DNA of 32,000 nucleotides from Candidatus Saccharimonadota bacterium (GCA_016700135.1 CP065004.1:1230001-1262000), one strand, 5' to 3'. Counted from the stretch's first letter, positions 2,980 to 10,489 are shown. Made by a program: numbers and translations. Notes: a model not told the origin generated them from the sequence alone.

Positions 2980-3228
2980 GTCTTCTTGATTGCACTCTCC
3001 TTCACACAATATTCATTTTAGACCGTTGTAATAATGCAATATGTACTTGTTATGATATAACACATATCCTATAAGAATAGTACAATTCCTCAATACATGG
3101 AGAAGTATTCCTTATAGTTACTACAAATTAGTTATTGTTCTGGATAAGTAAAGCATCTTACCTGAACGACTATTTGTATAAGCACTTTGACAACCGGATG
3201 CAAACAATACAGTGATTAAGAGAATAAA

Positions 3229-3279
3229 TCCTGACGGAGTATGAGGTTTGGAATATCCAGACTTGATAATCCGTCAGGA
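3229..3279 (+). promoter_or_regulatory. Extended stem-loop in the leader of the repeat-protein gene
   Basis: A 10-bp outer stem tcctgacgga/tccgtcagga (3229-3238 / 3270-3279) encloses an inner stem gtttgga/tccagac. It lies 60 nt upstream of the ATG at 3340, with no U-tract after it. Confidence 0.35.
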
Positions 3280-3339
3280 GGACGGAAGAAAAGAACAACT
3301 TCAGATTGAACACTCTCTACATGAAAGGACAGGTGTAAG

Positions 3340-6300
3340 ATGCGTTTCGTTCGAAGGATTCGTCAGGTTGTAACAATTGTCTGTATCGTTGTATATCTGC
3401 TGGCAAACGGGATTCCTCACGCTGATCCATCAAAGGTTGCACAAGCAGCCGGAACATTCACTATCAGTGGTATGGTCACCGTCAATGGACAAACAGTTTG
3501 GGACGGTTTTGGCGTGAAAATAACCGGAAGCCGTGGCACGACTATGTGGGCAGAGACTCGTGGAGGATGGTATCAGTTCACGGGGTTTTCCTCAGGAACA
3601 TATACCATCGGACACAACAGTAGTTGTACCCCTAATGCTCAGCTAATCTCCATTACAGGCAGCACTCGCTATGACATTCACTTGACATGCCAGACGTACA
3701 CTCTGGGCGGTTATGTGGCTATCAACGGCAAACCAGCCTGGAAAGGATTCGGAGTAAAGGCAACATTGGGTGATTGGAGTACCAAGTGGGGAGAAGTTGT
3801 GACGGATGACGGCTGGTATGAGTTTAAAGGCAGCAATGCTCTTATTGCCGGCAACTATGTCATACATCATAACCACAATTGCCCCTCGACAACCCCTGTC
3901 CCTATCTCGATTCCCGCGACCAACAACCGAGGACCTGATATAAACCTTGACTGCCCGACATACACTCTCAATGGGTATGTCAAGATAAACGGAGTCCCGG
4001 CATGGAAGGGTTTTGGAGTAAAGGCAACATTCGGAGACGGAACAACATTGTGGGCAAAAGTTGAGACTGATGATGGCTGGTATGAATTTCGTGATGCCAG
4101 TCGACTGATCCAAGGGAATTATGTGATCAGTCATAATCATAGCTGTCCTTCCAATGCCCCAATCCCTATCGGTATTCCTGCCACAAACAATCGCGGTCCT
4201 GATCTCTACCTGGATTGCCCGACTTTTCCGCTCCATGGCAAAGTCTATGTTAATGGAGAGCCTGCATGGAAAGGATTTGGTGTCAAGGTAACGATTAACG
4301 GCTGGATGACTAAATGGATTCAAACACAGGGTGATGATGGATATTACGAGTTTTCCGGAGGTAATGCGCTTCTCGAAGCCGACTATGTAATACATCACAA
4401 TCATCCGTGTGAATCAAACACCCCCGCCGGTATTCATGTCCCAGCAGCAAACAATCAAGGTCCGAATATTTACATTACCTGTCCTGATACAAAACATCCG
4501 CTCTATGGATACGTAACTGTAAATGGAAGACCTGCATGGAAAGGTTTCGGAGTAGCTGCAGCTCGCAAGAACGGCAGTACGAAGTGGGTTCTGACGGATA
4601 CAAGCGGCAGATATGAATTCAGTGGAGATGATATCCTCACTGAAGGCGAATACACAATTCGTCACAATCATAACTGCCCATCAAACAACGATGTCACGGT
4701 ATGGATTCCCAGCAATGGAAACCGGGGACCCGATTTTGACATCAGATGTCCTGCATACACTCTCTACGGCTATATCACAATTGACGGCACGCCCGCCTGG
4801 AAGGATTTTGGTGTAAAAGCCTCTCTCAAAGACGGTACGACTGTCTGGGCATTGACTGATGAGAACGGACGCTATGAGTTCAAAGGAGATGTCAGTCTGA
4901 TCGAAGCCGATTACACCATCCATCACAATCACCCGTGTCCATCTGATTCACCGACCAATGTTCACGTCCCATCAACAGGCAACCGAGGACCGGATATCCA
5001 TCTGACGTGCGGAAGTTTCAACCTGACCGGAAGAGTAACTGTTGATGGCAGCCCTGCTTGGAAGACTTTTGGAGTCAAGGCTGTGGGTAGCAATGGTAAA
5101 TCGTACTGGGCACTTGTTCATGACAATGACGGTCACTTTGCTTTTTCGAATCTGCCACGGGATACCTACTATGTGGGGCATGTTCACAACTGCGCTACTG
5201 AAGAGGGAAATCCCGTCACGATCGATCTGACAACTGACCGCTCAGCAGATTTCAACATCAAGTGTCAACCATCACCGGTACCTACACCTACACCGATCCC
5301 TATTGATCCTCCGGGAGGCTGCGTGGGATTAGAGACACGCGAGCGGCCAATGCAGCAATATAGCATCAAGCAAGATTTCGTTGCCTACTATATTGTTTCC
5401 AAAGCTACTTCTACTCTCAAATCAAACGCTTGTCCCGGTGCGATCTTTACGATTGGAGACATCACGACCGGTAAGCTTCTGTCGTTCGGATCCCATGGAA
5501 GCTACATTGATGTCTACAACGACGGTCGCATCAAAACCAACATAGAGAGCATCACCGCCAATCCTAAGTTTGAGTGCGGATTGGTCTGGGAAGTGATCAC
5601 GAACAAAAAGTATGCCTATTCATGTGAGACGTCCTACGGGGCATCGGCCAATTTGCCCAACCTCAACGGCAATATCACGCTGAACACGAAGATTGAGCAT
5701 GAAGTACATGTCCGAGGTGATCAACTTGCTTTGTCACTCGCATGGTCCATCTCAGAGATGACGAGGAAAGTTGAATCAATTAACATACAACTAACCGATC
5801 CCAATACGGTAGTAGGAATTTTTGGGTTAGGTATGATTGGTATGATACTCTACAACATGTCTCTCAAGTTCTTTGTATTTCCAATATTTTGGGGTGAGCC
5901 CAGTCCTGAACCGGCAGCAGTAGCGAGTAGCCTGAGTGATGAGCTTCCTGAAGAAATCCTCAGCGATCTCAAGGCAGCAATAGGTGAAGGTGCTGCTACT
6001 AAGGGTGTATGGTCAGAAATGGAAGTTTCCAGAGAAGGACCATCAACGCTGAAGCTTCAAGCTGACGGATTCAGCCCCACGGGTGGTGTCTATGTCCTTG
6101 TGACGGAAGATGAGTTGAGTTTCCCGAACGAAGCACCACTTCACGAAGGGAGCTATTCCGCTGATACTGATGGCCATGTCTATCTACAGATTCCATTGTC
6201 TGCATTGTCAGAGAAGCCTCTCGTAGTAATAGCCGTTGATCTTGAAGACTTCCGGTCACAGTACGCTCGGTATCTGAAAGGAGACATCGACGAGATTCAT

Positions 6301-6375
6301 TATCGAGGAACAGCAGCAGTTTTGCATTCGGACAATGTCACAAGCAGCCTTTACCTGCCTCTAGTCGAGCGGTAA
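3340..6375 (+). CDS. Large envelope protein: signal/anchor, 7 tandem ~85-88-aa domains, Pro/Thr linker, Cys-containing domain, one TM helix, acidic C-terminal tail
   Basis: 1011-codon ORF with an ATG start and an SD-like aaaggacaggtg upstream. The N-terminus is Arg-rich then hydrophobic, ending AQAAG. A TM segment VVGIFGLGMIGMILYNMSLKFFVFPIFW is encoded at nt 5809-5892. No enzyme motif recognised. Confidence 0.85.
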   Translation: MRFVRRIRQVVTIVCIVVYLLANGIPHADPSKVAQAAGTFTISGMVTVNGQTVWDGFGVKITGSRGTTMWAETRGGWYQFTGFSSGTYTIGHNSSCTPNAQLISITGSTRYDIHLTCQTYTLGGYVAINGKPAWKGFGVKATLGDWSTKWGEVVTDDGWYEFKGSNALIAGNYVIHHNHNCPSTTPVPISIPATNNRGPDINLDCPTYTLNGYVKINGVPAWKGFGVKATFGDGTTLWAKVETDDGWYEFRDASRLIQGNYVISHNHSCPSNAPIPIGIPATNNRGPDLYLDCPTFPLHGKVYVNGEPAWKGFGVKVTINGWMTKWIQTQGDDGYYEFSGGNALLEADYVIHHNHPCESNTPAGIHVPAANNQGPNIYITCPDTKHPLYGYVTVNGRPAWKGFGVAAARKNGSTKWVLTDTSGRYEFSGDDILTEGEYTIRHNHNCPSNNDVTVWIPSNGNRGPDFDIRCPAYTLYGYITIDGTPAWKDFGVKASLKDGTTVWALTDENGRYEFKGDVSLIEADYTIHHNHPCPSDSPTNVHVPSTGNRGPDIHLTCGSFNLTGRVTVDGSPAWKTFGVKAVGSNGKSYWALVHDNDGHFAFSNLPRDTYYVGHVHNCATEEGNPVTIDLTTDRSADFNIKCQPSPVPTPTPIPIDPPGGCVGLETRERPMQQYSIKQDFVAYYIVSKATSTLKSNACPGAIFTIGDITTGKLLSFGSHGSYIDVYNDGRIKTNIESITANPKFECGLVWEVITNKKYAYSCETSYGASANLPNLNGNITLNTKIEHEVHVRGDQLALSLAWSISEMTRKVESINIQLTDPNTVVGIFGLGMIGMILYNMSLKFFVFPIFWGEPSPEPAAVASSLSDELPEEILSDLKAAIGEGAATKGVWSEMEVSREGPSTLKLQADGFSPTGGVYVLVTEDELSFPNEAPLHEGSYSADTDGHVYLQIPLSALSEKPLVVIAVDLEDFRSQYARYLKGDIDEIHYRGTAAVLHSDNVTSSLYLPLVER
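3454..5268 (+). repeat. In-frame tandem coding repeat, seven units of about 255-276 nt
   Basis: Unit starts are at nt 3454, 3694, 3958, 4222, 4498, 4753 and 5014. Shared protein pattern: GYVxxNGxPAWKGFGVK...DDGWYEF...YxIxHNHxCPS...NxGPD...CP. Adjacent units R2 and R3 differ at many synonymous sites. Confidence 0.9.
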
Positions 6376-6382
6376 ATGGCAA

Positions 6383-6415
6383 TGTGGAGCACCTGGTAAC
6401 ACCAGGTGCTCCACA
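6383..6415 (+). terminator. Perfect 15-bp hairpin directly after the repeat-protein stop codon
   Basis: tgtggagcacctggt-aac-accaggtgctccaca starts 8 nt after the TAA at 6373-6375. No U-tract follows, so intrinsic termination is uncertain. Confidence 0.45.
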
Positions 6416-6445
6416 ATAGATTCTATTCCAATAATTGATACATAT

Positions 6446-6454
6446 TGATATAAT
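6446..6454 (+). promoter_or_regulatory. Extended -10 element TGATATAAT
   Basis: Matches the TGnTATAAT consensus exactly. It ends 7 nt before the ATG at 6462, which predicts a leaderless or near-leaderless transcript. Confidence 0.4.
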
Positions 6455-6461
6455 AAGCACT

Positions 6462-7187
6462 ATGAGTAACAACCAAAAAAAGCAAATAACTATATTTGAT
6501 TTTATATTTGAAATAATGCGGGGAACTTACCTTGCATTTCTTTTTTGCACGGGATTCGCAGGTTTGTTAATGGTTCTAGCATACAAATATACTTATGTTC
6601 CTTCTAATGTATTTTTGTATCTCATTGCTCATCCTTTTTTTGGATTAATAACTCTTGCAGTTTTAGTAATTCTTTTTTTTAGATACTTGCCTAGAGCTTT
6701 TTTTATAGCTAACAGGCTTCAATTCTCACAATCTAAGACGGCACGTGTTTATAATCATAATAAAAATGTATTAAAATCTAGCTTTTTTCAAAACAGCAAT
6801 ATAATTGTTAGCTTTTTAACGTTTAATATTATTTTAATTCTGTCGCTTCTTCAAACGATCGATGGTTTATTTTGGGGAAGACGATTAACCTCACTTAATG
6901 ATTTATTTAATGGTAAATATACTTCCTTCACCGATCCGGGTATGTGGATATGGTCATTGGTTTACTTTATTCAAATCTTGATCATATTCTTCTACCTAAA
7001 ATACAAATACGAATCCCCGAAACAGAAACCTCTCATTGATAAAACGATGGAGATATACAACAGTCCGGAAGCGGCACAATATCGGGAATCTAAATACGGA
7101 AGATATATCACCGTTTTTCTCCTCTCAGGATTCTGGATATTTCTCCACCAAATCGCACTTGTACTTATTCGTATTTTTAATCAATAA
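6462..7187 (+). CDS. Polytopic membrane protein, unknown family
   Basis: About five hydrophobic helices (e.g. YLAFLFCTGFAGLLMVLAY, MWIWSLVYFIQILIIFFYL). Sampled lines are ~30% GC. The track start at 6435 is TTG; the first ATG is at 6462. Confidence 0.6.
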   Translation: MSNNQKKQITIFDFIFEIMRGTYLAFLFCTGFAGLLMVLAYKYTYVPSNVFLYLIAHPFFGLITLAVLVILFFRYLPRAFFIANRLQFSQSKTARVYNHNKNVLKSSFFQNSNIIVSFLTFNIILILSLLQTIDGLFWGRRLTSLNDLFNGKYTSFTDPGMWIWSLVYFIQILIIFFYLKYKYESPKQKPLIDKTMEIYNSPEAAQYRESKYGRYITVFLLSGFWIFLHQIALVLIRIFNQ

Positions 7188-8066
7188 ATGAAAAACAAAG
7201 GAATCGTATTTATTATCGCTGCAATATGTATTGCACTTTTATATTTTGGTGCTACAAATCTCTCCCTTTTGCAAAATTCTTTACAAAAAGTGGGATTAGC
7301 AGAAGAACTGCATAAAGACTGGAACAGTCTCTATAGTAAACCATGTGGCATATATATAAAATACCCTGAAGACTGGGAAGCAATCTTACAGGAGAAGAAT
7401 GATCCGTTCTTAATGTGCCAAATTACTTTAGATGCACCGGGTAAAGGAGGAAGTATATTTATTAGTGGTAACGATAAAAACCATAACGATCAATACAATG
7501 ATGAAAAAAGGTATCCGACAGTTCGAAAAATCGGGAGATATAGCGGGCGGTACAATGAAACTTCCATTGATTGGTACTATGCTGAATCATATTATTTAGC
7601 TATTAATGATATAGCTTATGCAATCTCGTTCGAAACATCCAATAAAAACGATAAAGAAATTTTCTACGAGATTTTTGATACACTAACACTTCAAGAGTCC
7701 AATATTGATAAGTCATATGCAGATAATCCATACATTCCCAAAGAAGAAGACAGACCTTTATATTTTGACGGCCAGGAAATGAGCAAAGAGACATATTTAC
7801 TTATAAAAAATAATGAATCAAAACTGGATCAGTACGTAACGTCTACTGACACACAAAAGACTTTTAATGTAGAAGCTGCCAAAGCTGCAGGTTTTGATCC
7901 TATTGTTATCGAATATAAAACGGCATTTATCGAGTATCAAAACGCCTTTACCCAACAAATTCTTTCCCCTCCATCCACTGATCTTAAATTCATGAAAGTG
8001 ATGGATAAATATCCCATACTTAAACAATATATACTAGCTGAAAATAAATATAAAACTGTGAATTAA
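7188..8066 (+). CDS. Membrane-anchored or secreted protein, unknown family
   Basis: The ATG follows the upstream TAA with a 0-nt gap. An N-terminal hydrophobic segment GIVFIIAAICIALLYFGA precedes ~260 hydrophilic residues rich in Lys, Asn and Tyr. Confidence 0.6.
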   Translation: MKNKGIVFIIAAICIALLYFGATNLSLLQNSLQKVGLAEELHKDWNSLYSKPCGIYIKYPEDWEAILQEKNDPFLMCQITLDAPGKGGSIFISGNDKNHNDQYNDEKRYPTVRKIGRYSGRYNETSIDWYYAESYYLAINDIAYAISFETSNKNDKEIFYEIFDTLTLQESNIDKSYADNPYIPKEEDRPLYFDGQEMSKETYLLIKNNESKLDQYVTSTDTQKTFNVEAAKAAGFDPIVIEYKTAFIEYQNAFTQQILSPPSTDLKFMKVMDKYPILKQYILAENKYKTVN

Positions 8067-8081
8067 TTGGAAAATAAAATA

Positions 8082-8930
8082 ATGTCCCCATCCAATCTCA
8101 AACATGCCGTCACAGAAGGGTTGAAACTGGCAAAAGGAAGTTTTGTCATATTCCTCATATACTATTTCTTCAATGTCCTTATTTATGTTCATAGTACAGA
8201 ATTCCCCGAATACCTGAAGTATGCGTTATTTTATCTTCCCGTCTATATCGGTTTCGTGTGTTCCGTTCCGTCACTGCTTGATGCAATAAGAAAAAGCAAA
8301 CTGACCGCCGGACGATTACTCAAAGATACTCTGACTTCCTTGTGGAGACTTATTATACCGATGAGCGTTTTTGTATTTCTCATTGTCGCACCGATTGTGT
8401 ATCTCTACGAAAATAATCCGGCAATGCTGCGGAACTTTTTACTTGATGTACAGAAACAGCAGTCAGATTTTGCAATAACTGATTATCTAAGCTCTGCAAT
8501 CATCCTTTCCCTTTTTAGTTTCACGACCTGTTTCTTTTCTTTGGAAAAACGGAATGTTATTTCCGCTGTCTTTAGGAGTATCGGAGTAACAATACAAAAT
8601 CCTTTTTACCTTTTAATTTTAGTATTTGTTTCGTTTATCGAGATAATCATACGAAATGAACTCGAATTTGACACGCTCATCGGTAATATCCTTTTTGCAA
8701 TTCCGACAACATATCTTGTTGTAGTCATTGCATCTTCGAATGTTGTATATTTCCGTGAAGTGATACAAAAACCGTCTGAATCCGAAGCTCCTTCGCAAAT
8801 CCCTATCATTCGATGGCTTCAGACATCTTCACCTTCGCGGAATATGGCTTTGGTCCTTTTTGTACTGGTACTGTTTTACTTCCTTTCTGTTAACGCAACG
8901 GGCACGGTACCCCCAGGTATCGGAGAATGA
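8082..8930 (+). CDS. Polytopic membrane protein, unknown family
   Basis: About six hydrophobic segments. The ORF opens with TTG at 8067, directly after the upstream stop. The first in-frame ATG is at 8082, so the start is ambiguous. Confidence 0.55.
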   Translation: MSPSNLKHAVTEGLKLAKGSFVIFLIYYFFNVLIYVHSTEFPEYLKYALFYLPVYIGFVCSVPSLLDAIRKSKLTAGRLLKDTLTSLWRLIIPMSVFVFLIVAPIVYLYENNPAMLRNFLLDVQKQQSDFAITDYLSSAIILSLFSFTTCFFSLEKRNVISAVFRSIGVTIQNPFYLLILVFVSFIEIIIRNELEFDTLIGNILFAIPTTYLVVVIASSNVVYFREVIQKPSESEAPSQIPIIRWLQTSSPSRNMALVLFVLVLFYFLSVNATGTVPPGIGE

Positions 8931-8937
8931 TGAAGAT

Positions 8938-9402
8938 TTAAAGCAGCATCGCGACGACTACAAGAAGGATTCCTCCAGCCACAGCAGGAACATAATCAAA
9001 AACACCAGCCACGGGGAGATTCGTGACGGGTGTCGGTGTAGCTGTGACACCAGTTTCAGGAAGCTCAGTCGGTCCGGCAGTTGGGCTCATCAGTAAATCA
9101 ATAGTCGGAGTCGCACTCACAGCAGCACCTGTCGGTGTCACGGTCGGACTGGTACTTTGATACGGAATAGTCGGAGACGGTGAAGGAGAAGGACTCGACC
9201 CTGCCTGAGCCAGGAGGGGGTCTTCGTCAAGCGGATCATCCAGCAAAGGGTCATCTTCAGAAGCCTGACTATTGAGGAGTACCAAAGGATTGCTTCCATC
9301 CTGAATGAGATATACCAGATATCCGCCCGCAGCAACCAGTACCACTATTACAATAATCAAAATAGCAGATTTTGCATCCATTTGTTTCCCCATAGATTTC
9401 AT
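8938..9402 (-). CDS. Small Pro/Ser/Thr-rich envelope protein with an N-terminal TM and C-terminal LPETG / LPVAG sortase-like signals
   Basis: Features in order: N-terminal anchor AILIIVIVVLVAAGGYLVYLI, an acidic DDPLLDDPLDEDPLL stretch, SPSPSPSP and TPT low complexity, then ELPETG...NLPVAG followed by the hydrophobic end GGILLVVVAMLL. The track start at 9468 is TTG and overlaps mraY; the first ATG is at 9402. Confidence 0.55.
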   Translation of the reverse strand: MKSMGKQMDAKSAILIIVIVVLVAAGGYLVYLIQDGSNPLVLLNSQASEDDPLLDDPLDEDPLLAQAGSSPSPSPSPTIPYQSTSPTVTPTGAAVSATPTIDLLMSPTAGPTELPETGVTATPTPVTNLPVAGVFDYVPAVAGGILLVVVAMLL

Positions 9403-9451
9403 TGTAGTATGGATCGTTCGGAGTTGCAACGTGATCGGATATACCCGTATA

Positions 9452-10489
9452 TCACTTGAGGAAGGCAAGCATCAATCCGACAAGGGCAAACACGATGGAA
9501 AAAAGCCAGAATCGGAGAACGATTTTGGGCTCTTCCCATCCCAAGTATTGCAGAAGCAGATGAAGAGGTGCCGCGGGAAATACTTTCTTTTTGCGATACC
9601 GTTTACTCAGAAGCTGCACGAGCGAACTGAGGATTTCGAAGAAAAATACTCCTCCGATTATCGGAAGGGCAAATGCTTTCCCGAGAAGCAAACCGATCAC
9701 GGCAAACATAGCTCCGAACGATAATGCTCCCGTATCTCCCAAAAAAATACGTGCCGGATATATGTTGAAGTACAGGAACGCAATTAGTCCTCCCACCCAC
9801 ACGGCAATAAAGACGGAAAGAGGTACGTCAATAATAGTCCGTGCAACGGCCCAGAAGCTAAACAGTGCTATCATCAGTACTCCCGAAGCCAGACCGTCAA
9901 GCCCATCTGTGATATTGACTGCATTGGCAAAAGCGACAATTACGAAGGTTGAGAACAAGATATAGAAATAAGAAAAATCAAATACCCCGAAAAAAGGAAT
10001 ATGAATAATGCTAATACCGAGCATATTGTGAAGTGCTACGGAGATAATCAGTGCAAGGATGATCTCAATAATGAGTTTCAATCTCAATCTCATTCCGAAA
10101 AAATGTTTTTTCTCCCAGAAAAAGATTTTATTTAAGTCGTCATATATCCCCAACAGCCCGAAACTCACAAACGTAAACAGGATAATTGCCATTTCCCAAA
10201 CAATCGAAGGATAGTTCGAGTGCGTGTATATTCCGAAAAATTTGAAACTGCCCAGAAAAAATAACGTGAGAATTGTCGTAACGGCGATAACAAGGATCCC
10301 TCCACCCACCGGCGTACCGCTTTTATGCTGGTGAAATTTGTCAAAAATCGGAGTCGGCTTATTAAAAGCATCCAATGTCTGCTGCTTCGCCCGCTGAAAT
10401 TTTTTTACATACAGAAAATTAATAAACGGAATTATCAGGACAAAATGGATGATAAGGGAGATAATCGTAATGTAGAGATACAGCGCCAT
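9452..10489 (-). CDS. mraY: Phospho-N-acetylmuramoyl-pentapeptide transferase
   Basis: Polytopic membrane protein with the NAVNITDGLDGLA signature and a DDLNK motif. 345 aa. Confidence 0.9.
   Translation of the reverse strand: MALYLYITIISLIIHFVLIIPFINFLYVKKFQRAKQQTLDAFNKPTPIFDKFHQHKSGTPVGGGILVIAVTTILTLFFLGSFKFFGIYTHSNYPSIVWEMAIILFTFVSFGLLGIYDDLNKIFFWEKKHFFGMRLRLKLIIEIILALIISVALHNMLGISIIHIPFFGVFDFSYFYILFSTFVIVAFANAVNITDGLDGLASGVLMIALFSFWAVARTIIDVPLSVFIAVWVGGLIAFLYFNIYPARIFLGDTGALSFGAMFAVIGLLLGKAFALPIIGGVFFFEILSSLVQLLSKRYRKKKVFPAAPLHLLLQYLGWEEPKIVLRFWLFSIVFALVGLMLAFLK

What the first reader, a model, noticed from the sequence alone, without database searches (positions are those of the whole stretch)
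3340..6375. 1011-aa envelope protein with seven tandem domains, each carrying a Cys pair and a His-rich H-N-H-x-C-P motif
Translating 3454-5268 gives seven consecutive units: aa 39-118, 119-206, 207-294, 295-386, 387-471, 472-558 and 559-643. They share G-Y-V-x-[IV]-[ND]-G-x-P-A-W-K-x-F-G-V-K ... D-D-G-W-Y-E-F ... Y-x-I-x-H-N-H-x-C-P-S ... N-x-G-P-D ... C-P. The first half of each unit resembles a carboxypeptidase-regulatory / Cna-B-like beta-sandwich; that is my pattern recognition, not a search. I cannot place the second half (HNHxCPS ... RGPD ... CP). H-N-H-x-C is intact in the five internal units and degenerate in the two terminal ones. All seven keep two Cys about 24 residues apart. R2 and R3 differ at many synonymous sites, so the array looks old and selectively maintained rather than recently expanded. 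The flanking parts are an Arg-rich signal/anchor, a PSPVPTPTPIPIDPP linker, a ~180-aa four-Cys domain, one strong TM (nt 5809-5892) and a 160-aa acidic tail. That predicts a type I membrane protein with ~800 aa outside the cell, a candidate adhesin or repeated metal-binding surface array.
Basis: partly seen in the sequence, partly recalled or inferred. Interest (0 to 1): 0.7.

Follow-up and report, generated by a model that had tools for sequence, protein, structure and literature searches.

The report
Disulfide-stapled repeat stalk protein, CPR bacterium
This gene encodes a secreted cell-surface "stalk" protein of a tiny Candidatus Roizmanbacteria bacterium, built from seven ordinary beta-sandwich domains that each carry an unusual conserved cysteine pair and His-Asn-His turn; it has a strain-swappable C-terminal cassette and a little-known "YLP-box" tail, so it is a new variant of a familiar kind of protein rather than a new kind.

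Summary
In detail: ORF 3340-6375(+) encodes 1011 aa with seven tandem 80-92-aa units, an invariant Cys pair and an HNHxC motif.

Each unit is one complete seven-strand prealbumin-like (CarboxypepD_reg / SdrD-B / CnaB-like) beta-sandwich (AlphaFold pLDDT 95). The HNHxC...C part is strands E-G of that same domain.

- **Cys pair:** invariant in 52/52 units of an 11-protein subfamily, most likely an intradomain disulfide.
- **His residues:** less conserved (48/52 and 32/52), so metal binding is neither supported nor excluded.
- **Fold neighbours:** stalk domains of Gram-positive pilins and adhesins.
- **Distribution:** very rare and Roizmanbacteria-restricted. About 2,700 generic relatives lack the Cys/His features.
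- **Locus:** a variable slot between tpiA and a peptidoglycan-synthesis cluster. Related strains carry 5-7 units and a different C-terminal cassette, with the DNA breakpoint at the R6/R7 boundary.
- **C-terminus:** ...YLPLVER aligns with the NCBIfam "YLP-box / ultrashort_CTERM" putative sorting motif, which its orthologues pass.
- **Topology:** only partly settled. The internal hydrophobic segment is TM-competent, but the YLP tail also occurs on fully secreted paralogues.

Verdict: an adhesin-like surface stalk protein, a new variant of a known kind, of moderate interest.

The parts
3340..6375 (+). Complete gene, 1011 aa plus stop codon: a secreted surface stalk protein
   Evidence: ORF list. 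Identical NCBI protein from Ca. Roizmanbacteria, plus full-length orthologues at 42-43% identity.
3340..3447 (+). Sec-type signal peptide (aa 1-36): Arg-rich n-region, hydrophobic core, conserved V-A-[QK]-A cleavage-type site just before the first unit
   Evidence: KD and Wimley-White hydropathy. The V-A-[QK]-A motif is present in 9 of the 10 family proteins that have a signal-type N-terminus. Cleavage is inferred from the -3/-1 rule and was not predicted with SignalP.
3454..3693 (+). Unit R1 (aa 39-118), divergent: GHNSSC, Cys pair 21 residues apart
3694..4221 (+). Units R2-R3 (aa 119-294), each a 7-strand beta-sandwich. HNHxC sits in the E-F turn and the second Cys just after strand G.
   Evidence: AlphaFold2 model, mean pLDDT 95.1, pTM 0.75. 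Foldseek PDB hits to pilin and adhesin stalks.
4222..5013 (+). Units R4, R5, R6 (aa 295-558), HNHxC intact
5014..5268 (+). Unit R7 (aa 559-643), GHVHNC. It is the first element of the strain-variable cassette.
   Evidence: Aligns to Pfam CarboxypepD_reg positions 2-79 of 82. DNA similarity to the sister-strain locus L003 ends at nt 5010.
5269..5313 (+). Pro/Thr-rich linker PSPVPTPTPIPIDPP
   Evidence: Direct reading. Conserved as a P/T-rich stretch in P0004 and P0005.
5314..5808 (+). Beta-rich domain with four invariant Cys (C661, C698, C746, C762), fold unknown
   Evidence: The four Cys are invariant in the 3-orthologue alignment at 28-29% identity. No Pfam or PDB match. AlphaFold confidence is low.
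5809..5892 (+). Hydrophobic, TM-competent segment (aa 824-851) with a polar break (N-M-S-L-K)
   Evidence: KD 1.82, Wimley-White -11.9 kcal/mol. Conserved as a hydrophobic segment in P0004 and P0005, absent from paralogues with other cassettes.
5893..6348 (+). Acidic, Cys-free, mixed beta/alpha tail domain (aa 852-1003)
   Evidence: 28 D/E against 10 K/R. No Cys. AlphaFold pLDDT 60-77, strands plus helices. No family match.
6349..6372 (+). Extreme C-terminal YLP-box-like motif L-Y-L-P-L-V-E-R
   Evidence: Y, L, P, L and R are invariant in orthologues. P0005 and P0004 pass NCBIfam NF053834 (17.0 and 12.6 bits, cut-off 10), and P0005 passes NF050076 (15.8 bits, cut-off 15). The motif is about 100-fold enriched at the C-termini of related repeat proteins.
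5011..6905 (.). Cassette replaced between strains: R7, linker, C-terminal module, intergenic DNA and the 5' part of the next gene
   Evidence: blastn of the window against L003: 82-85% identity up to nt 5010, none until nt 6906. L003 and L006 carry the alternative '...WWHD' module.
2980..8937 (.). Variable island between tpiA and the conserved GT4-DAGK-CofD-GlmU-MurA-MurB cluster
   Evidence: The same flanks occur in L003, L004 and L006, but the contents differ: an 862-aa gene plus 7 ORFs, a 490-aa gene alone, and a 963-aa gene.

Best explanation
The gene encodes an exported cell-surface stalk protein of a Candidatus Roizmanbacteria (CPR/Patescibacteria) cell.

A Sec signal peptide is probably cut at the conserved V-A-Q-A site. 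It is followed by seven tandem, roughly 88-aa prealbumin-like beta-sandwich domains of the CarboxypepD_reg / SdrD-B / CnaB type.

Each domain has an invariant Cys pair. The first Cys lies in the turn after strand E, within the H-N-H-x-C motif. The second lies immediately after the last strand G. By strand topology both sit at the C-terminal pole of the domain, next to the junction with the following domain.

I infer that the pair forms an intradomain disulfide that pins the last strand to the body of the sandwich. This would be a covalent staple playing the mechanical role that isopeptide bonds play in CnaB pilin domains and Ca2+ sites play in SdrD B-repeats. I also infer that the His-Asn-His turn caps or rigidifies that pole. 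The array then works as a stiff, protease- and force-resistant spacer.

The spacer carries an exchangeable C-terminal cassette. Here it consists of a PT linker, a four-Cys beta-rich domain, a hydrophobic membrane-competent segment and an acidic 150-aa domain. The protein ends in a YLP-box, a putative ultrashort C-terminal sorting motif shared with Chloroflexota.

The C-terminal end is the cell-proximal end. It is most likely held by the hydrophobic segment acting as a stop-transfer helix. The repeats project outward.

The gene sits in a hypervariable slot where strains differ in repeat number and cassette, as expected for a host- or surface-interaction (adhesin-like) protein under diversifying pressure.

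Shown: the repeats, the fold, conservation, rarity, cassette swapping and the presence of the YLP motif. Inferred: the disulfide, the mechanical role, signal-peptide cleavage, the orientation and the adhesin function.
For: - **Domain identity:** Pfam SdrD_B 2.6e-13 and CarboxypepD_reg 8.8e-9, both above gathering cut-offs. R7 aligns to CarboxypepD_reg positions 2-79 of 82. The best PDB sequence-profile hit is NOMO2, a chain of such sandwiches (3e-7). The AlphaFold R2-R3 model has pLDDT 95.1 and strands A-G per unit.
- **Fold neighbours:** pilin and adhesin stalks 4oq1, SpaA 5hts, TIE 6fwv, Bap 7dm0, UafA 3is0, SiiE.
- **Conservation:** C63 and C87 in 52/52 units, H59 in 48/52, N60 in 34/52, H61 in 32/52. 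All 18 Cys outside the signal peptide lie N-terminal of the hydrophobic segment and come as an even number.
- **Subfamily break:** 11 proteins at 50 bits or more per unit, against 22 bits or less and no conserved Cys pair in the rest of the 153 retrieved hits (2,764 representatives at E<=1e-3).
- **Purifying selection:** pN 0.18 against pS 0.78 for R2/R3.
- **Modularity:** the same stalk is joined to four different C-terminal modules, including a DUF1287/CHAP-like one.
- **Syntenic slot:** strains carry 5, 6 or 7 units, including an exact one-unit R2/R3 hybrid deletion, and the cassette breakpoint lies at nt 5010.
- **YLP-box:**
- **Background:** all cultivated CPR are episymbionts whose host-binding mechanisms are largely unknown (PMC11623550 abstract).
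Against: - The disulfide rests on invariance, pairing, export and strand topology.
- No binding partner, expression data or localisation exists.
- The hydrophobic segment has no basic flank on its C-terminal side apart from one internal Lys.
- The YLP tail also ends paralogues that lack any second hydrophobic segment (P0006, P0007, P0008, P0027). A cytoplasmic tail therefore puts the same motif on opposite sides of the membrane in different family members.
- The C-terminal cassette has no recognisable fold (pLDDT 49).
- Single units score below Pfam domain thresholds on their own.
Confidence: 0.62

Rival explanations
1. Repeated metal-binding surface array. Each unit binds a transition metal through the H-x-H pair, with or without Cys or an acidic C-D loop residue, at the domain pole. 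This would serve metal capture or storage, or metal-dependent rigidity analogous to Ca2+ in SdrD, SiiE and cadherin rods.
For: H59 is present in 48/52 units and H61 in 32/52. Positions i and i+2 at the end of strand E point the same way (geometric inference). By topology the acidic C-D loop (D38/D39, often D/E/N) lies at the same pole. The repeats hold 24 His in 605 aa, against 7 in the remaining 368 aa.
Against: The second His is S, Y, V, Q, R, K or F in 20 of 52 units, and the acidic loop is not conserved. The two invariant Cys in an exported domain are better explained as a disulfide than as ligands. No metal-binding family matches in Pfam, NCBIfam or PDB. No Ca2+-type Dx[DN]x[DN]G loops are present. 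The generic superfamily folds without these residues.
Confidence: 0.15
2. Fully extracytoplasmic protein sorted by its YLP-box. The acidic tail is outside the cell. The hydrophobic segment is a re-entrant or interfacial anchor, or a buried or partner- or host-membrane-inserting element, not a stop-transfer helix. Surface retention depends on an unidentified machinery that recognises the ultrashort C-terminal motif.
For: The YLP-type ending is the only element besides the signal peptide and the stalk that is shared by family members with unrelated cassettes. It includes P0008, which is just signal peptide, 5 units and ...LFVPLLRSD and lacks any other anchor. Y, L, P, L and R are invariant across orthologues that are only 28-29% identical in this region. 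The segment is interrupted by polar or Pro residues, is 42 aa long in P0005, and has acidic Pro-rich downstream flanks.
Against: Wimley-White -9.3 to -11.9 kcal/mol predicts membrane integration by the translocon. The query's segment (about 29 aa) is too short for a two-span hairpin. The tail has no Cys while every exported domain has paired Cys. No function of the YLP-box has been published.
Confidence: 0.3
3. S-layer or S-layer-associated lattice protein rather than an adhesin-like stalk.
For: Weak NCBIfam hit to the Kustd1514 S-layer glycoprotein family (E 3.4e-4). A Foldseek hit to Sulfolobus SlaA/SlaB (8qox, E 0.011). From my own knowledge, CPR cells are known to carry S-layers.
Against: The score is 18.1 bits against a family cut-off of 1400. 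The hits reflect only the shared beta-sandwich. The gene is strain-variable in length and cassette and is very rare, unlike a core lattice protein.
Confidence: 0.07
4. Sortase-assembled pilin or MSCRAMM-type wall-anchored protein.
For: The top structural neighbours are Gram-positive pilins. A neighbouring small ORF carries LPETG-like motifs.
Against: The query has no LPXTG, no YPKN pilin motif and no conserved Lys/Asn isopeptide positions.
Confidence: 0.03

Closest known systems
Tandem CarboxypepD_reg-like / prealbumin-like beta-sandwich arrays (Pfam PF13620; e.g. NOMO in PDB 9c7v; giant bacterial surface proteins)
   Same: Same domain length (about 85 aa), the same 7-strand sandwich, a head-to-tail array, and the consensus G-x-V...G-x-Y-x-F...G-x-Y-x-[IV]. 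The whole-protein Pfam score is above threshold and the best PDB sequence hit is NOMO2.
   Different: Generic members have no Cys pair and no HNH turn (e.g. YTITPSKSGYxFSP in place of YVIHHNHNCPSTTP). They score 22 bits or less per unit against the query's unit profile, compared with 50 bits or more within the subfamily.
SdrD B-repeats and related adhesin stalks (PF17210; UafA 3is0, Bap 7dm0, SiiE 2yn3)
   Same: Best Pfam hit (50.6 bits). Fold-level similarity. The role is a rigid spacer between the anchor and the functional module.
   Different: SdrD-type repeats are rigidified by Ca2+ in Dx[DN]x[DN]G loops. The query has none, whereas generic relatives have 5-22. It has a Cys pair instead.
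CnaB-type domains of Gram-positive pilins (SpaA 5hts, BcpA 3kpt, ancillary pilin 4oq1)
   Same: Top Foldseek matches (E 8e-6 to 3e-3). Both have a covalent intradomain cross-link that stabilises a stalk domain (functional analogy, inferred).
   Different: There is no Lys-Asn isopeptide triad, no LPXTG and no pilin motif. The cross-link would be a disulfide, and there is no sortase polymerisation signature.
YLP-box putative sorting motif proteins (NCBIfam NF053834 'ultrashort_CTERM', NF050076 'sort_motif_YLP')
   Same: The extreme C-terminal ...[YF]-L-P-[LIVM]-[LIVM]-x-[RKQ]. Orthologues P0004 and P0005 exceed the curated cut-offs. The motif also ends distant repeat proteins, including one from Ardenticatenaceae (Chloroflexota).
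   Different: The query's own tail was not reported by hmmscan. Here the motif follows a TM-competent segment and a 150-aa domain. In the WWH-type paralogues a similar element is internal. No mechanism is published.

Membership tests
CarboxypepD_reg-like domain (PF13620) | Sequence match at or above Pfam's gathering score | tested here: met
   Whole protein 36.0 bits against GA 32.3. Single units are sub-threshold (14-18 bits), but R7 aligns to positions 2-79 of 82.
CarboxypepD_reg-like domain (PF13620) | A single 7-strand prealbumin-like beta-sandwich of about 80-90 aa | tested here: met
   AlphaFold2 R2-R3 model, pLDDT 95.1, seven strands per unit.
SdrD B-like domain (PF17210) | Sequence match at or above the gathering score | tested here: met
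   50.6 bits against GA 29.7, summed over units.
SdrD B-like domain (PF17210) | EF-hand-like Ca2+-binding loops (Dx[DN]x[DN]G) | tested here: not met
   0 occurrences in the query against 5, 11 and 22 in generic relatives P0094, P0010 and P0014. That these loops define the family is from my own knowledge.
CnaB-type pilin domain / sortase-assembled pilin | Conserved Lys (first strand) to Asn (last strand) isopeptide pair | tested here: not met
   Strand-A end and strand-G positions are variable (K in 13/52, N in 13/52).
CnaB-type pilin domain / sortase-assembled pilin | LPXTG sorting signal and YPKN pilin motif | tested here: not met
   Regular-expression search finds none.
YLP-box putative sorting motif (NF053834 / NF050076) | Score at or above the curated cut-off, at the extreme C-terminus | tested here: inconclusive
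   The query tail LYLPLVER was not reported. Orthologues pass: P0005 17.0 and 15.8 bits, P0004 12.6 bits (cut-offs 10 and 15). The query differs from P0004 by I to V only, and the columns are invariant in the alignment.
YLP-box putative sorting motif (NF053834 / NF050076) | Actual sorting or processing at the motif | not testable with these tools
   No literature. This needs proteomics or genetics.
Type I (bitopic) membrane protein | Cleavable signal peptide plus one hydrophobic stop-transfer segment | tested here: met
   Hydropathy only: KD 1.97 and 1.82, Wimley-White -4.7 and -11.9 kcal/mol. A conserved AxA-type site is present. SignalP and TMHMM were not available.
Type I (bitopic) membrane protein | Positive-inside charge bias after the TM segment | tested here: not met
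   The downstream flank is EPSPEPAAVASSL (net negative). P0004 is likewise net negative; P0005 is neutral (one D, one R).
Kustd1514-family S-layer glycoprotein (NF052345) | Score at or above the curated cut-off | tested here: not met
   18.1 bits against a cut-off of 1400.
Metal-binding repeat protein (generic) | Invariant ligand set and bound metal | tested here: inconclusive
   H59 in 48/52 units but H61 in only 32/52. Geometry was not measurable because no coordinates were available, and metal content is not testable here.

The most novel reading that the evidence does not exclude
This family is the variable host- or surface-attachment fibre of an episymbiotic CPR lineage. It would be a disulfide-stapled stalk, possibly His/metal-rigidified, whose tip cassettes are swapped between strains. 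It would be placed on the cell by an uncharacterised 'ultrashort' C-terminal YLP-box sorting system shared by Chloroflexota and Patescibacteria. In the window's allele, the hydrophobic segment plus acidic domain would be an effector that inserts into a partner membrane rather than the cell's own anchor.
Probability: 0.1. Interest if true: 0.8.

Novelty: new variant of a known kind. Interest (0 to 1): 0.4.

Why it matters
Host recognition and binding by CPR/Patescibacteria are largely unexplained beyond type IV pili (PMC11623550). This protein offers three things:

- **A tractable candidate surface fibre.** It is a compact, confidently modelled domain with a testable covalent staple and a testable His cluster.
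- **A natural experiment in cassette swapping.** This happens at a fixed chromosomal slot.
- **A clean entry point to the YLP-box.** NCBI curators have flagged this C-terminal motif as a putative sorting signal, but no published mechanism exists. The minimal paralogue (signal peptide, five repeats, YLP tail) and the paradoxical TM-plus-tail allele in this window together define simple experiments on what the motif does.

If none of that holds, it is still just another tandem beta-sandwich surface protein, which is a common class.

Tried and rejected
1. A homology search with the C-terminal 368 aa alone found nothing, not even the identical P0001. I treat this as a tool limitation, not as evidence of absence.
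2. The AlphaFold model of aa 644-1011, built from a 3-sequence alignment, reached pLDDT 49.4. That is too poor for a fold search, so the folds of the four-Cys and tail domains remain unknown. Pfam, NCBIfam and PDB profile searches also gave nothing.
A tighter alignment found one locus among 185,579 species. A metagenome scan with the C-terminal module found none. The PAWKGFGVKA DNA pattern found one contig.
5. I considered the downstream 250-aa polytopic membrane protein (6435-7187) as a dedicated partner or sorting enzyme. It is weakly conserved next to P0004's gene (E 1e-7), but I rejected it as obligatory because the P0008 locus has the YLP-tailed gene without it.
6. Literature searches for the motif (YLPLV and similar, 'YLP-box', 'ultrashort CTERM') found nothing relevant.
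7. S-layer and pilin memberships were rejected on cut-offs and motifs.
8. The antisense ORFs inside the repeats (e.g. 3643-4404, minus strand) are mechanical by-products, and no evidence supports them.


Full report

Yes. ORF 3340..6375 (+) encodes 1011 aa. It is identical to an NCBI protein annotated only as 'hypothetical protein IPM65_06525 [Candidatus Roizmanbacteria bacterium]' on a 1.45-Mb contig.

The seven units at the coordinates given align as described. Even the most divergent pairs score 19-26 standard deviations above shuffled controls.

HNHxC is intact in R2-R6 and degenerate in R1 and R7. Each unit has two Cys 24 residues apart, 21 in R1. The signal-like N-terminus, PT linker, four-Cys region, hydrophobic segment (aa 824-851) and acidic tail (28 D/E against 10 K/R) are all there.

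Synonymous sites between units are saturated (pS 0.71-0.91). R2 and R3 are 73% identical in protein, but 37 of their 64 identical-residue codons differ and pN is only 0.18. Tandem Repeats Finder sees nothing at the DNA level.

**2. What is a unit?**

The data show that one unit is one complete domain.

- Pfam gives SdrD_B (50.6 bits) and CarboxypepD_reg (36.0 bits) for the protein, both above gathering thresholds.
- R7 on its own aligns to CarboxypepD_reg positions 2-79 of 82, at a weak score.
- A profile of two-unit windows hits NOMO2, a chain of such sandwiches, as its best solved relative, with matches running across whole units.
- An AlphaFold2 model of R2-R3, built on 21 two-unit windows from the family, is very confident (mean pLDDT 95.1). 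It shows seven strands per unit: A 4-10, B 20-25, C 30-35, D 41-44, E 53-59, F 69-73, G 83-85.

So 'Y-x-I-x-H' is strand E, 'N-H-x-C-P-S' is the E-F turn, 'P-I-x-I-P' is strand F, 'N-R-G-P-D' is the F-G loop, and the second Cys follows strand G.

Foldseek against the PDB returns stalk domains of Gram-positive pilins and adhesins: 4oq1, SpaA 5hts, B. anthracis TIE 6fwv, Bap 7dm0, UafA 3is0, SiiE.

**3. The Cys pair and the His residues**

Over 52 units from the 11 proteins of the subfamily, conservation is as follows:

| Position | Conserved in |
|---|---|
| C63 | 52/52 |
| C87 | 52/52 |
| H59 | 48/52 |
| N60 | 34/52 |
| H61 | 32/52 |
| H58 | 14/52 |

By strand direction (E up, F down, G up), the E-F turn and the end of G lie at the same C-terminal pole of the sandwich. 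That pole abuts the next domain.

An invariant pair in an exported domain at one pole is most simply a disulfide pinning the last strand. This is an inference.

The defining cross-links of the closest families are absent. There are no Dx[DN]x[DN]G Ca2+ loops, whereas generic relatives have 5-22. There is no conserved Lys/Asn isopeptide pair, no LPXTG and no pilin motif.

I therefore propose that the disulfide is this lineage's way of stapling a stalk domain. The H-x-H pair at the strand end could cap the pole or bind a metal. The substitutions of H61 in 20 of 52 units, and the lack of any metal-family signal, make a universal metal site unlikely but do not exclude it.

**4. How wide is the family?**

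An exhaustive profile search of 1.84 billion representatives found 2,764 proteins at E<=1e-3. Many are giant proteins with up to 40 repeats.

There is a sharp break. Eleven proteins have units scoring 50 bits or more, all with the Cys pair. Every other retrieved hit scores 22 bits or less per unit and has no conserved Cys pair or HNH turn.

Among 185,579 species-representative genomes only one locus carries the subfamily. Among 241 million JGI metagenome records only one contig carries the PAWKGFGVKA signature. The variant is thus a rare, Roizmanbacteria-centred elaboration of a very common domain.

**5. Modular architecture and a variable chromosomal slot**

The same signal peptide and stalk are joined to different C-terminal modules:

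| Proteins | C-terminal module |
|---|---|
| Query, P0004, P0005 | four-Cys domain, hydrophobic segment, acidic tail |
| P0002, P0003, P0012, P0017 | unrelated module of about 300 aa ending in a Trp/His-rich tail (...WWHDNF, ...WHRKY) |
| P0006 | DUF1287/CHAP-like (NlpC/P60-type) module |
| P0007, P0027 | another unknown module |
| P0008 | none (signal peptide, five units, ...LFVPLLRSD) |

Loci L003, L004 and L006 are syntenic with the window: UvrD, TIM, [this gene]..., GT4, DAGK, CofD, GlmU-like, MurA, MurB. At that slot they carry, respectively, a 6-unit WWH-type gene, the minimal P0008, and a 7-unit WWH-type gene.

Window and L003 DNA are 82-85% identical up to nt 5010, the R6/R7 boundary. 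There is then no similarity until nt 6906. L003 also lacks exactly one unit (264 nt) through an R2/R3 hybrid.

So R7 plus the whole C-terminal module is an exchanged cassette. The array is ancient but still occasionally recombines. This pattern is typical of surface proteins under diversifying pressure.

The rest of the window is a peptidoglycan and cell-division cluster: MurA, MurB, Mur ligases, PBP2, RsmH, MurJ, FtsK.

**6. The C-terminal tag**

The query ends ...LYLPLVER. Endings elsewhere in the family are:

| Protein | Ending |
|---|---|
| P0004 | ...YLPLIER |
| P0005 | ...YLPLIQR |
| P0006 | ...FLPIVRN |
| P0007 and P0027 | ...YLPVIQQ plus 4 more residues |
| P0008 | ...FVPLLRSD |

Among the 153 proteins retrieved, 14 have [FYLIVW][LV]P[LIVM][LIVMT] in the last 16 residues, against about 0.14 expected from the motif's internal frequency. 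Seven of these are distant giant repeat proteins, and one is from Ardenticatenaceae (Chloroflexota).

NCBIfam holds two tiny curated models for this: NF053834 'ultrashort_CTERM' and NF050076 'sort_motif_YLP', both described as 'YLP-box putative sorting motif'. P0005 (17.0 and 15.8 bits) and P0004 (12.6 bits) exceed the cut-offs. The query's tail was not reported, although it differs from P0004's by I to V only and the columns are invariant in the orthologue alignment.

I found no publication on the motif. In each locus fetched that carries the ending, it is unique to this gene.

**7. Topology**

The N-terminus has a basic n-region and a hydrophobic core. A V-A-[QK]-A motif lies immediately before unit 1 in 9 of the 10 family members that have a signal-type N-terminus. 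I infer a cleaved Sec signal peptide.

The internal segment is TM-competent in all three orthologues: KD 1.82, 1.63 and 2.31, and Wimley-White -11.9, -9.9 and -9.3 kcal/mol. Paralogues with other cassettes have nothing comparable.

Against this, there is no positive-inside bias. There is also the YLP-box paradox: the same, strongly conserved terminal motif ends paralogues that must be wholly exported. I cannot resolve this with the tools available.

Both readings agree that the repeats are outside the cell and that the C-terminal end is cell-proximal.

**8. Comparison with the known, and verdict**

It works like the stalk region of MSCRAMM-, SdrD-, Bap- and pilin-type surface proteins. By sequence and fold it is a member of the CarboxypepD_reg-like / SdrD_B-like superfamily. 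It fails the defining features of Ca2+-dependent B-repeats, isopeptide CnaB pilins, sortase substrates and the anammox S-layer family.

What is new:

- the invariant disulfide-type Cys pair with the HNH turn;
- the restriction to a rare CPR lineage;
- the cassette-swapping slot;
- the YLP-box in an unexpected context.

That makes it a new variant of a known kind. Interest is moderate (0.4). Most of the appeal lies in the testable staple-or-metal question and in using this family to crack the YLP-box.

Noticed in passing
window 6349-6372; also the C-termini of P0004, P0005, P0006, P0007, P0008, P0027, P0039, P0058, P0081, P0097, P0127, P0143: The extreme C-terminal YLP-box ([YF]-L-P-[LIVM]-[LIVM]-x-[RKQ]) is about 100-fold enriched at the C-termini of tandem beta-sandwich surface proteins from CPR and at least one Chloroflexota member. 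It is matched by NCBIfam NF053834 and NF050076 ('putative sorting motif'), and I found no publication on it.
   Followed up: partly
P0002 aa 691, P0003 aa 691, P0012 aa 444, P0017 aa 302: In the WWH-type paralogues a YLP-like element (EIQYLPLVIMTD and similar) is internal. It lies about 45 aa after the last repeat and is followed by a domain of about 260 aa. P0012's copy scores 12.4 bits on ultrashort_CTERM although it is not C-terminal. This could be a processing site or a relic; it is unexplained.
   Followed up: partly
L003 3266-5854, compared with window 3694-4221: The sister-strain gene has six units because of an exact 264-nt deletion that creates an R2/R3 hybrid unit, with the crossover in the shared DDGWYEF stretch. 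The ancient array therefore still undergoes unequal recombination.
   Followed up: yes
L003 (contig CAYMVU010000017.1): The contig is labelled 'uncultured Gammaproteobacteria bacterium' but is syntenic with, and 76-90% identical in DNA to, this Roizmanbacteria window. It is probably a binning error, conceivably co-binning of an epibiont with its host.
   Followed up: partly
window 8938-9468 (-): A small PT-rich protein with an N-terminal TM, an LPETG motif, and a C-terminal NLPVAG followed by a hydrophobic tail. It looks like a sortase substrate and is conserved at the same position in L003, with a 149-aa gene at the same position in L004.
   Followed up: no
window 7188-8066 (+), aa 198-288: The C-terminal ~90 aa of this unknown downstream ORF are distantly similar (21% identity, pairwise E 5e-7) to aa 710-804 of the alternative WWH-type cassette of P0003 (shared ...YP[LI]L..Y... 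element). The variable island therefore holds a module related to the other allele's cassette.
   Followed up: partly
window 6435-7187 (+): A 250-aa polytopic membrane protein with no family match. It is weakly conserved directly downstream of the 43%-identical orthologue P0004 (E 1e-7) and present in L003, but absent from the P0008 locus.
   Followed up: partly
P0010 (4688 aa, distant relative): Its repeats carry a different Cys pair at analogous positions (...YKVFTCDEDP...VEPC...). Disulfide stapling of this sandwich may have arisen independently in another branch.
   Followed up: no
window 3643-4404 (-), 4414-4671 (-), 4681-4932 (-): Long antisense ORFs (253, 85 and 83 aa) lie inside the repeat region. 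No homology or other support was sought beyond noting them. They are most likely by-products of the repeat's codon composition.
   Followed up: no
window 5269-6372 (tool behaviour): the search for homologous proteins with the C-terminal 368 aa alone returned no hit, not even the identical database protein P0001. Nulls from that word-indexed search are therefore unreliable for this region.
   Followed up: no
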